The notes under the pieces are model-generated. The model did not search any database. It was not told the DNA's origin and saw only the letters and a list, made by a program, of their open reading frames with translations. The translations under genes and the position numbers were made by a program. A DNA stretch of 63,100 bases, the filler included, from Pirum gemmata (taxonomy: Eukaryota), in the NCBI GenBank assembly GCA_002812295.1. It is 22 parts of 22 records of this genome, joined end to end, with 100 filler letters (N's around TTAATTAATTAA, not from the genome) between each part and the next. Parts side by side here need not be neighbours in the genome. Positions count along the whole stretch, not along the records: positions 14,355 to 17,022 come from PDIN01005202.1; 21 more parts are not named here. One strand, written 5' to 3'. Shown here in pieces: positions 14,431-17,022 of this stretch (within the stretch, counting starts at the first letter, position 1; each line of letters begins with the position of its first letter).

Positions 14431-17022
14431 ATGAATTACAACATTAATATTAATAATAAAATAGAAGAACAGGCAGTTATTAGACCTAACAGCCCTGCTC
14501 TTACTTTTGAAAACCAAACCTTAACTTATCAACAACTAAACAAAAAAGCTACCCTTTTATCTGAAACTATCAATAATGTTAATAATGAAACATTAAACAG
14601 TTCAAGAGTATGCGTGGTGATGAATCGTAATTTAGGATTAGTAATTTCATTAATAGCTATTCATAAACTAAAAGCTTGTTATGTTCCTATTGATAATCAT
14701 TACCCAAAAGAAAGACAACAATATATCTTCACAGATTGTAAAGCTAATTTTGTAATAACTGATGAACAAACGGTAGTTGACAATATACTGAATGATGATA
14801 ATTGTATAAATAAACCAACAGTTGTGTTGGTAGATAGTAACGGTAATTTTATAAAAGCCTTCAGTGATAATAATAGTAATAATAATAATAACGCAAAGCA
14901 ACTAGAACAACAACAAGAACAACAAAATTTAGCTTACATTTTATATACGAGTGGGAGTACGGGGAATCCAAAAGGTGTTATGATTGATCATAGAACAGTT
15001 TTGAATATATTTGATTCTTTTACAGAAGAATTAGCTATGGGTGAAGGGTGTAATTGGTTAGCAGTGACGACGTTTTGTTTTGACATTTCCGTTTTGGAAA
15101 TATTTTTACCCCTGGTAAGTTTTAAAATTTTGTAATTATTTTTTTATTATTATTATTGTTTTTAATTATAAAATTATTTAATGATTTGAATATTATTTGT
15201 TTGATTCTTTATTATTATTATTATTATTATTATTATTTGACCATAATAATAATATTATAATAATATTATAATGATATATTTTTTTAAATTTTATTTAATA
15301 ATTTGAATATATTGATTTTTAATTTAATTAATTAAAATAATTAATTTTATTCGTATTCATTCAAATAGACGACAGGAGCCCATTTATTTCTTGCATCTAC
15401 AAAAGTTCAGAAAAACGCTCAATTAATCATCAATACACTTAAAACTTGCAATATTACACATATGCAAGCTACTCCAGCTACCTTCAAAATGATGATGAAA
15501 ATTGGATGGATGGGGCAAGAAGACTTGACCATTTTGTGTGGTGGTGAAGCCTTTCCTTCTAACTTGCTTGCATTAATCCCCAACACCAAAGCTGTTTGGA
15601 ACGTATACGGCCCAACAGAGGCGACCATCTGGTGTACCCTGTTTCGCTTTCCTAAAGATCATTCTGATCCCAAATGCATTCCAATCGGAAAAGCGGCTTC
15701 TCATGTTAAATTGTATATATTAAATGAACATATGAAAGAAGTAGCTGATGGTGAAATAGGACGATTATTCATTGCTGGTGATTGTTTAGCGGTTGGTTAT
15801 TGGGAAAGACCAGATTTATCTGCAGACAAATTTGTTCAGGATATTTTTAGTAACAATGTAAACGACCGAATGTATGACGCTGGGGATTTAGTTAGACGTT
15901 TGCCATGTGGAAATATTGATTACATATCACGTGCAGATGAGCAAATCAAGTTGCGTGGTTATCGTATTGAAATCGGAGAAGTTTCAGCAACTGTTGAAAG
16001 TCATCCTGATATCGAAACTGCTATTGTGATGGTCGTGGAGGATGACGAGGAATTTGGGGGTGAGGCTGCATTAGTAGCTTATATTCAACTTAAACCAAAT
16101 GCCAATATCAAAGTGGTTACCACTTTACGTAAATATATGTTGGGAAAATCCCCAAGTTATATGTGCCCTGCTGCTTTTAAAGTAATTGAAAAAATGCCTT
16201 TAACCCCAAACGGTAAAATTGATAAAAAACAATTAGCCAAACACGTTAAAGATATTGATTTTGATATGCTGATGATGAACGAAAGACAAAATAGTAGTCA
16301 AAATAAGGTTACTGGTTGCCAGTACGAAATTGATAGAATTATTAGTTTAGTGGAAGACATGACAGGTGCAAAAGTAGAGGCTAATTCTGATTTAGCAATT
16401 ATTGGTCTTGATTCTTTTGGTGCTATGATGTTTTTGAAACGATTTAACAAAATCTTTTCTACTGATTTTAAAATCGAACAGGTAGTAAAACAACCCACTA
16501 TCAAAGCTTTGGCAGAATTGGTAGCTGAGAAATCAGGTAGTAGTCGCCAAAACCCAATAACACAAAATACCCTACAAGAAGATACCATAGCGAAAATCCT
16601 TGATTTAGTAGAGGATATGACTGGTGCTTCCGTTTCCGAAAACTCTGATTTATCAATAGTTGGTCTAGATTCTTTTGGTGCCATGATGTTTTTAAAAAGA
16701 TTCAACAAAGTTTTTGCAACTGATTTTAAGATTGACGAAATAGTAAAGCAACCTTCGATTAGGGCTCTAGCTGATCTAGTCACGGGTAGATCTGATCATT
16801 TTACTATCGATGTGGGTGACGTGGAGAGGGGTGAAGAAGTTCAAAAACCAATCCGAAACTCCAATTTATTAAACGGGGTGCGCTTTTTCTTGATAATTTG
16901 GGTTATTTTTGATCATTTTACCGAATCAAAGTTGATGAGTCAAAATGGATTTACTGGTAGATGGAATACAGAAGGTTTCCTAATTTTAACTGCCTTCACT
17001 TCAATGTTGGCGTTAGATAATC
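14431..17022 (+). CDS. NRPS-like protein: adenylation domain (Gly-type code), two thiolation domains and the start of an acyltransferase-3-like membrane domain. Exons 14431-15114 and 15369->17022; 3' truncated by the linker
   Basis: A-domain cores LTYQQL, YILYTSGSTGNPKG, FDISVLE, GGE, NVYGPTE, GRLFIAGDCLAVGYW, YDAGD, RADEQIKLRGYRIEIGEV and LTPNGKIDK. The GTAAGT..TAG intron at 15115-15368 splices in frame (LPL|TTGAHL). Two GLDSFGAM carrier motifs lie at ~16404 and ~16662, followed by RNSNLLNGVRFFLIIWVIFDHF. Confidence 0.92.

What the first reader, a model, noticed from the sequence alone, without database searches (positions are those of the whole stretch)
14431..17022. Eukaryotic Gly-type A-T-T-acyltransferase-3 fusion: candidate single-protein surface glycylation system
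Seen: an intron-containing gene that starts directly with an adenylation domain, has no condensation domain, carries two carrier domains, and then reads RNSNLLNGVRFFLIIWVIFDHF...WNTEGFLILTAF before the contig ends. Known: that segment resembles the N-terminus of Acyl_transf_3 (OafA/OatA-type) membrane acyltransferases (R..LDGLR...LVV..H, then V..FF.LSGF). Aligning by eye to the GrsA/PheA positions gives the pocket D-I-L-Q-L-G-V-I-W-K, the glycine-type Stachelhaus code. Inference: the protein activates Gly, loads it on phosphopantetheine and transfers it at the membrane to a glycan or lipid. That logic matches the multi-gene bacterial DltA/C/B (D-Ala, MBOAT transferase) and Vibrio AlmEFG (Gly on lipid A) systems, but here it is fused and uses an AT3-like output domain. 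I do not know a characterised eukaryotic enzyme with this architecture.
Basis: partly seen in the sequence, partly recalled or inferred. Interest (0 to 1): 0.88.

Follow-up and report, generated by a model that had tools for sequence, protein, structure and literature searches.

The report
Glycine-loading membrane transferase in a protist
One intron-containing gene of a single-celled relative of animals joins an enzyme predicted to activate glycine, two carrier arms and the start of a membrane acyltransferase-like domain, so it likely attaches glycine to a cell-surface sugar or lipid, a job otherwise known from multi-gene bacterial systems.

Summary
The gene is real: two exons, a 254-bp GT-AG intron, an amino-acid adenylation (A) domain with code DILQLGVIWK (glycine type), two carrier (T) domains, and 58 residues of an AT3-like domain before the contig ends. 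Its first 739 residues equal a EukProt protein labelled Pirum gemmata (Ichthyosporea). A 95%-identical copy (P0128, 920 aa) extends the AT3 match to half the domain (PF01757 E 2.4e-7, 30.6 bits, cut-off 31). The AT3 part keeps R-X10-H but lacks the DxxR aspartate and RxxR, which bind CoA's nucleotide end; 16 of 17 bacterial A-T-AT3 fusions lack both too, whereas most unfused AT3s keep them. This fits a carrier-fed rather than CoA-fed transferase. The layout is not unique: this scan noted A-T-AT3 fusions before in bacteria and an alga, and I found 17 in bacteria. The 8 whose A domains I read lack the amino-acid-binding aspartate and branch apart, so this eukaryotic glycine version looks separately assembled. 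Unshown: glycine activation, the acceptor, the second half of the membrane domain. Best reading: single-protein glycylation of an extracytosolic glycan or lipid (about 50%). I found no characterised carrier-fed AT3 in print.

The parts
14431..15114 (+). Exon 1 (228 codons): N-terminal part of the adenylation domain, with the A3 loop YTSGSTGNPKG (14944-14976) and code residues D218, I219, L222
   Evidence: PF00501 profile 2-228, E 1.4e-40
15115..15368 (+). Spliceosomal intron, 254 bp, GT-AG, phase 0, 7.9% GC, ATT-repeat rich like the other contigs
   Evidence: the junction PL|TTGAH is the one in EukProt P0123 and P0128
15369..17022 (+). Exon 2 (551 codons), open at the contig end: rest of A, T1, T2, start of the AT3-like domain
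14443..16244 (+). NRPS-type amino acid adenylation domain (spans the intron), code DILQLGVIWK, catalytic Lys511 at 16215-16217; A7 motif reads YDAGD in all three copies
16323..16532 (+). Carrier domain T1, GLDSFG with Ser577 (16413-16415)
16578..16790 (+). Carrier domain T2, a duplicate of T1, GLDSFG with Ser663 (16671-16673)
   Evidence: model of the P0128 T2 matches PCP 4pwv_B at Z 11.1, rmsd 1.6, 70 aligned
16848..17021 (+). First 58 residues of an AT3-like (Acyl_transf_3) membrane domain: TM1 with R733-X10-H744 (16881-16916), N730 in place of the DxxR Asp, TM2 with F765 and Ala in place of the FxxxxG Gly; cut by the contig end

Best explanation
The gene encodes one protein with an adenylation domain, two carrier domains and an AT3-like membrane domain; it is predicted to activate glycine with ATP and load it as a thioester on the carriers' phosphopantetheine arms, and the membrane domain likely takes the glycyl group from that arm rather than from CoA and likely transfers it to a sugar or lipid on the far side of the membrane. 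Steps: (1, shown) domain layout and intact catalytic motifs; (2, predicted from the code) Gly-AMP formation; (3, inferred) a host PPTase arms Ser577 and Ser663, and the two near-identical carriers work in parallel to raise flux, since no condensation domain is present to join them; (4, inferred) a carrier docks on the cytosolic face and its arm enters the channel that acyl-CoA uses in other AT3s, reaching His744, while Arg733 could hold the arm's phosphate; (5, inferred, weakest) the acceptor is a hydroxyl or amine of a cell-wall glycan or glycolipid in the secretory lumen or at the surface, adding positive charge as Dlt and AlmEFG do. A further domain after the unseen C-terminal half (such as SGNH) could do the last transfer.
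For: Pfam/NCBIfam layout. Code DILQLGVIWK; 23 of the 30 best-scoring non-Pirum A domains in hand carry DILQ-type codes; literature links to Gly. AT3 kinship of the P0128 tail: PF01757 E 2.4e-7, own profile E 8e-9 with TM1, TM2, TM3 and the 'lWsL' motif in register, beats 500 shuffles; a model built on a 37-row alignment has mean pLDDT 77.8 with long helices where AT3 helices fall. Motifs: R/K-X10-H in 27 of 27 unfused AT3s, 17 of 17 bacterial fusions and Pirum; DxxR-X10-H in 21 of 27, 0 of 17 and not Pirum; RxxR in 22 of 27, 1 of 17 and not Pirum (K803-x-x-G806). [quoted passage not shown] All domains, the AT3 part too, are better kept than the linkers between copies (window vs P0128: A 96, T1 99, T2 94, AT3 part 97% against linkers 67-79%; vs P0127: 91, 70, 70, 64% against 21-57%). 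P. gemmata has a thick cell wall (PMC11286789).
Against: Only profile positions 4-169 of 326 of PF01757 are seen, in a sister copy, at 30.6 bits, just under the cut-off of 31; TM9 and any C-terminal domain are unseen. RxxR is reported as essential in acetyl-CoA-using AT3s, so its loss also fits a dead or repurposed domain. The AT3 review states that acyl-CoA, not ACP, is the donor where tested (PMC9558356). The structure model leans on the alignment I gave it; folded alone it was poor (pLDDT 40.3). Nothing in the data names the acceptor: the contig holds no other gene. The code is a prediction, on a long branch (1.2 changes per site). Expression was not examined.
Confidence: 0.5

Rival explanations
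1. Same chemistry, other acceptor: the protein puts glycine on a secreted small molecule or a membrane lipid precursor as a tailoring step, not on the cell wall.
For: AT3 proteins in Streptomyces antibiotic clusters do a final acylation after export, and fungal AT3s sit in natural-product clusters (PMC12423673 section 10). The A domain derives from NRPS assembly lines.
Against: No partner synthase is seen on the 2.7-kb contig, though it is too short to tell; most characterised AT3s act on glycans.
Confidence: 0.2
2. The membrane domain is no longer a transferase: it anchors the A-T-T unit or passes glycine or a product across the membrane, and a separate enzyme takes glycine from the carriers.
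For: DxxR Asp, FxxxxG Gly and RxxR are all changed. VanT has an AT3 domain of unknown role, proposed as a serine transporter, fused to an amino-acid enzyme.
Against: Arg733, His744 and the TM2 Phe, all tied to function in AT3s, are kept; the same selective loss recurs in 16 of 17 bacterial carrier fusions, which random decay would not predict; the AT3 part is 97% kept between two copies.
Confidence: 0.15
3. The AT3-like domain still uses an acyl-CoA and acylates the amine of carrier-bound glycine, making an N-acylglycine in place of a starter condensation domain.
For: Acyl-CoA is the donor of tested AT3s; the protein has no C domain.
Against: The CoA-nucleotide motifs are the ones lost; the acceptor site of AT3s faces away from the cytosol where the carriers are; no release domain is seen.
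Confidence: 0.07
4. The A domain activates another small acid or amino acid (alanine, sarcosine, glycolate), or the copies are decaying remnants of a transferred bacterial gene.
For: Long branch and only 39% best identity to any bacterial A domain; A7 motif deviates (YDAGD); codes can be shared between Ala and Gly domains.
Against: Asp218 for an alpha-amino group is kept, the code matches Gly-type domains, no stop or frameshift in 779 codons, domain-over-linker conservation in three copies.
Confidence: 0.08

Closest known systems
Vibrio cholerae AlmEFG (glycine/diglycine on lipid A; PMC4278540, passages)
   Same: Glycine ligase loads a phosphopantetheinyl carrier, which donates glycine to a transferase that modifies an envelope molecule.
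   Different: Three separate bacterial genes; AlmG is a lipid A acyltransferase-type enzyme, not AT3 (recalled); here one eukaryotic protein with two carriers and an unknown acceptor.
DltABCD D-alanylation of teichoic acids (recalled; PMC3783018 seen as search listing only)
   Same: Adenylation enzyme, carrier and multi-pass membrane transferase move an amino acid across a membrane.
   Different: D-Ala, MBOAT fold, separate proteins; the window protein scores 266 and 254 bits on the DltA models, below their cut-offs of 476 and 560.
AT3 / Acyl_transf_3 (PF01757) O-acyltransferases of the TmAT superfamily: OafA, OafB, OatA, Oac
   Same: TM1 R-X10-H, TM2 Phe, TM3 'xIxPxY' and the later Trp motif in register; nearest unfused AT3s are of the OafA-like type.
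   Different: Lacks DxxR Asp, FxxxxG Gly and RxxR; fused behind A-T-T; predicted donor is an aminoacyl-carrier, not acyl-CoA. The two reviews read in part name SGNH, racemase and NRF fusions only.
Uncharacterised bacterial A-T(n)-AT3 fusions (two groups found here: 15 proteins like L123-L128, L164-L171, L177; 2 like L173, L178)
   Same: Same domain order, same retention of R-X10-H and loss of DxxR/RxxR.
   Different: The 8 A domains examined lack the amino-acid-binding Asp (Cys or Ser there) and sit apart from NRPS A domains at SH-aLRT 99; their AT3s score the Pirum domain lower (3.1 and -4.5 bits) than unfused AT3 profiles do (8.6-22.2 bits).
Glycine-type NRPS modules (e.g. NcmB of nocamycin; PMC5466765, passage)
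   Same: A-domain family and code; 35-39% identity over about 510 residues to the best bacterial domains in hand.
   Different: No condensation, thioesterase or reductase domain; cannot elongate a peptide on its own.

Membership tests
NRPS amino acid adenylation domain | TIGR01733 over cut-off; A3 loop, Asp235- and Lys517-equivalents | tested here: met
   372.6 bits vs 317.4; D218, K511
Glycine-activating A domains | DILQLG[LMV][IV]WK-type code | tested here: met
   DILQLGVIWK; compare
Glycine-activating A domains | Measured glycine adenylation | not testable with these tools
   needs an enzyme assay
Canonical (elongating) NRPS | Condensation domain and a release domain | tested here: not met
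   no PF00668 or TE/R in P0123 or P0128; C-terminus beyond residue 920 unseen
AT3 / Acyl_transf_3 (PF01757) | Pfam match over the gathering score | tested here: inconclusive
   30.6 bits vs 31 on a half-length fragment of the sister copy; 15.1 bits in the window itself
AT3 / Acyl_transf_3 (PF01757) | R/K-X10-H in TM1 | tested here: met
   R733...H744
AT3 / Acyl_transf_3 (PF01757) | DxxR Asp, FxxxxG Gly and RxxR (CoA-binding face) | tested here: not met
   N730, A770, K803-x-x-G806 (RxxR read from P0128). So it is filed as AT3-derived, not as a canonical member
AT3 / TmAT superfamily | Ten-helix fold with TM9 SxxxY | tested here: inconclusive
   only the first half is available; model shows long helices there; the fold lists were filled by the carrier domain
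Bacterial A-T(n)-AT3 fusions | Domain order A-T(n)-AT3 with R-X10-H kept and RxxR lost | tested here: met
Bacterial A-T(n)-AT3 fusions | Divergent A domain without the amino-acid Asp, in the family's clade | tested here: not met
   Pirum A groups with NRPS A domains, 99 SH-aLRT
Bacterial A-T(n)-AT3 fusions | AT3 domain in the family's clade | tested here: inconclusive
   free tree puts it with 15 unfused AT3s (95/89) on a long branch, but AU does not reject union with group 1 (p 0.215) or both groups (p 0.156)
Dlt system | DltA model over cut-off; MBOAT transferase | tested here: not met
   below both DltA cut-offs; no MBOAT match
AlmEFG | AlmG-type transferase and lipid A acceptor | not tested
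   no AlmE/F/G sequences were compared; the output domain matches PF01757 instead

The most novel reading that the evidence does not exclude
An ichthyosporean built, from a bacterial-type glycine NRPS module and an OafA-like AT3, a one-protein machine that glycylates its cell wall or surface lipids. It would be the first AT3 that moves an amino acid from a carrier protein, the first Dlt/Alm-like surface aminoacylation in a eukaryote, and a separate origin of carrier-fed AT3s that lost the CoA-nucleotide site convergently with the bacterial fusions.
Probability: 0.42. Interest if true: 0.82.

Novelty: new variant of a known kind. Interest (0 to 1): 0.62.

Why it matters
Tested AT3 enzymes use acyl-CoA; a carrier-fed AT3 would widen the family's chemistry, and this protein is the easiest test case found so far because, unlike the bacterial fusions, its substrate can be predicted (glycine). 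Loss of the CoA-nucleotide motifs gives a simple sequence marker for carrier-fed AT3s. If the acceptor is the wall, a close unicellular relative of animals would tune surface charge by the bacterial route used against cationic antimicrobial peptides, and it would give a first chemical handle on a thick ichthyosporean wall.

Tried and rejected
No whole genome is held and sequencing runs were not available, so the contig was not extended, expression was not checked and a host PPTase was not looked for. Homolog searches: T-T-AT3 region against 966-2755 aa proteins, 0 of 2172 candidates; A region, best 120 all multi-module NRPS-type; P0128 400-920 against 506-1610 aa proteins, best 120 held only P0123 from a eukaryote source; the last 80 residues against 1.84 billion representatives gave 5 hits, 2 Pirum copies and 3 unrelated repeat proteins that I dropped. 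These are length- and word-limited, so fragments in other ichthyosporeans or other eukaryotes are not excluded. 0 of 239 homologous proteins and none of loci L001-L073 carried an AT3 match. P0128 against 201 genomes around Corallococcus and 301 around Pseudomonas: no listed match went past residue 703, but only 4 and 2 candidates per genome were scored. T2-AT3 stretch: no plasmid match, no fused match in 301 actinobacterial genomes, no AT3 structure by sequence. Metagenome scan gave one weak A locus. ESM Atlas: whole exon 2 gave A-T clusters; residues 400-551 gave a PP-binding + Acyl_transf_3 actinobacterial cluster at 0.75, a lead only. Fifteen long-frame AT3 loci showed no A domain (9 of them also scanned with Pfam); of 11 further loci 6 were fusions and 5 were not. 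hhalign of five bacterial T-AT3s against whole P0128 found nothing (probability 0.1). Single-sequence fold failed; both fold searches were filled by carrier domains, so the membrane part was not tested. My first splice trial was one base off, corrected. Rejected: bacterial contaminant (intron, host-like composition, three copies under one source label); annotated end at residue 739 as the true end (frame continues and matches P0128); Gly-Gly synthesis by the two carriers (no C domain; Vibrio diglycine is ascribed to two successive transfers). Literature searches returned no paper on an A-T-AT3 enzyme or an ichthyosporean NRPS-like gene; the library is open-access only. Supplements: PMC13345962 files 2-4 had no matching entry and file 1 could not be read; PMC12283262 supplement gave no hit for the codes and its Table 5 was not seen.

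Full report
Setting. The window is a row of 22 short contigs joined by N-TTAATTAATTAA-N spacers. The finding fills one 2,668-bp contig (14355-17022), so there are no real neighbours. No whole genome is held.

Observation. Exon 1 (14431-15114) and exon 2 (15369-17022) are split by a 254-bp GT-AG intron of 7.9% GC; the spliced frame gives 779 residues with no stop and runs off the contig. A search of 1.84 billion representatives with the last 80 residues returned P0123, which is the exact first 739 residues of this product, and a second copy P0127. The source labels both, and a cluster mate P0128, as Pirum gemmata proteins of EukProt, an ichthyosporean. Pfam finds AMP-binding, AMP-binding_C and two PP-binding domains and no condensation domain; TIGR01733 is passed. 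The two carriers are duplicates with GLDSFG serines.

The A domain. The ten code positions read DILQLGVIWK in P0123 and P0128; 23 of the 30 best-scoring other A domains in hand have DILQ codes, at up to 39% identity. DILQLGVI is the pocket given for NcmB, predicted to activate glycine in line with the nocamycin structure (PMC5466765, one passage); DILQLGMIWK is listed for Gly-activating domains (PMC12283262, passages). In a 38-row quick tree the Pirum pair lies among NRPS A domains (SH-aLRT 99) in a group rich in Gly-type codes (94, unstarred), on a long branch. The rows were chosen from hits to the query and hold no other eukaryote, so a bacterial source is likely but not shown.

The membrane domain. 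In the window only 58 residues are present (PF01757 E 0.012). P0128, 95% identical, continues to residue 920 and matches PF01757 positions 4-169 of 326 at E 2.4e-7, 30.6 bits, just under the cut-off of 31. A profile of unfused AT3s from five genomes aligns TM1, TM2, TM3 and the Trp motif in register; the tail scores 26.8 bits against at most 10.5 for 500 shuffles. A model of T2 plus this half-domain on a 37-row alignment has pLDDT 77.8 with long helices; it depends on that alignment, and fold searches only confirmed the carrier (Z 11.1, rmsd 1.6, 70 aligned to 4pwv_B). Domains are more conserved than linkers among the three copies, the AT3 part included. Whether P0128 is a paralog or an allele is open.

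Motifs. AT3s have DxxR-X10-H in TM1, FxxxxG in TM2 and RxxR in TM3, most of them lining the CoA site (PMC12423673, passages, section 6 part 1 of 2 and section 10). [quoted passage not shown] The Pirum domain keeps R733, H744 and F765 but has N730, A770 and K803-x-x-G806. Among 27 unfused AT3s (those passing coverage and duplicate filters in the 30 loci) 21 keep DxxR-X10-H and 22 keep RxxR; among 17 bacterial carrier fusions 0 and 1 do; all keep R/K-X10-H. The bacterial rows are related to each other, so this is two or three lineages, not 18 events. The pattern is what a donor without CoA's nucleotide end predicts; it would also fit loss of activity, which the kept Arg, His and Phe argue against.

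Is the layout unique? No. Weak PF01757 matches in long frames led to 6 A-T-AT3 proteins in 10 hand-picked actinobacterial genomes. A profile from five of them plus the Pirum stretch found 9 strong matches in 401 genomes around Pseudomonas (8 single-frame fusions, 1 split), plus an A-T4-AT3 seen through its carriers, 2 in 201 around Nostoc and 0 in 201 around Puia. Pfam on 6 of the 17 gave AMP-binding and PP-binding in 6 and PF01757 in 3. Earlier notes of this scan describe the same bacterial families and an algal hydrolase-A-AT3-T protein; three further look-ups found no note on a eukaryotic glycine-type case. The 8 bacterial A domains put in the tree lack the amino-acid Asp and branch apart. 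The Pirum AT3 scores better on unfused-AT3 profiles (8.6-22.2 bits) than on the fusion groups (3.1, -4.5) and joins 15 unfused AT3s at 95/89, but the AU test does not reject union with the fusions (p 0.215 and 0.156). So a separate origin of the A domain is well supported; a separate origin of the whole fusion is likely, not proven. No amino-acid-type A-T-AT3 turned up in bacteria, within the limits told under Tried and rejected.

Mechanism. Most likely A makes Gly-AMP and loads two parallel carriers; a carrier docks on the cytosolic face of the AT3-like domain and its arm enters the donor channel; glycine passes to an acceptor on the luminal or outer face. The acceptor is the weakest step: a wall glycan or glycolipid is favoured by what AT3s usually do (PMC9558356, passages) and by the thick wall of this organism (PMC11286789, passages), but a secreted small molecule is possible. 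It works like AlmEFG (PMC4278540, passages) and Dlt (recalled) but is a member of neither.

Novelty. The reviews read in part list SGNH, racemase and NRF fusions of AT3 and state that acyl-CoA rather than ACP is the donor where tested. Searches found no paper on this architecture; PMC10531068 (term search) had nothing on it. The activate-carry-transfer logic is known and the domain order is common in bacteria though uncharacterised, so I class it as a new variant.

Noticed in passing
window 27854-29110 (+) and 56702-57982 (-): Two similar class 3 lipase genes on different contigs (PF01764, E about 1e-32); with the three copies of the A-T-T-AT3 gene this points to recent duplications or kept haplotypes.
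   Followed up: partly
window 50197-52539 (+): Long frames with acidic-triad-like stretches that look like a DDE transposase by eye (recalled resemblance); no Pfam match at E 0.001 for 50875-52539.
   Followed up: partly
window 30580-31454 (+): Broken frames resembling a non-LTR reverse transcriptase fragment by eye (recalled resemblance); no Pfam match for 30873-31454.
   Followed up: partly
window 6217-7734 (+), 21294-22013 (-), 58039-58356 (-): Ankyrin-repeat protein, leucine-rich-repeat protein and a ribosomal protein S18 exon: ordinary eukaryotic genes on other contigs.
   Followed up: yes
window 33786-34469 (-) and 39434-40486 (+): Two hydrophobic, multi-helix-looking proteins with no Pfam match at E 0.001.
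   Followed up: no
L173:3127-6549 (+) and L178:1926-4592 (+): A second bacterial fusion type, A-T4-AT3-like (1141-aa frame) and A-T-AT3 (889-aa frame), distinct in both A and AT3 from the commoner type.
   Followed up: partly
L172:1753-4768 (+): A split form of the common bacterial fusion: A-T ends at a stop and the AT3 follows as an overlapping separate frame.
   Followed up: no
L107:1609-4011 (+) and L110:1624-4125 (+): Actinobacterial AT3 frames with a prokaryotic phospholipase A2 match before and DUF4383 after the AT3 domain; read stop to stop, so the fusion is unverified.
   Followed up: no
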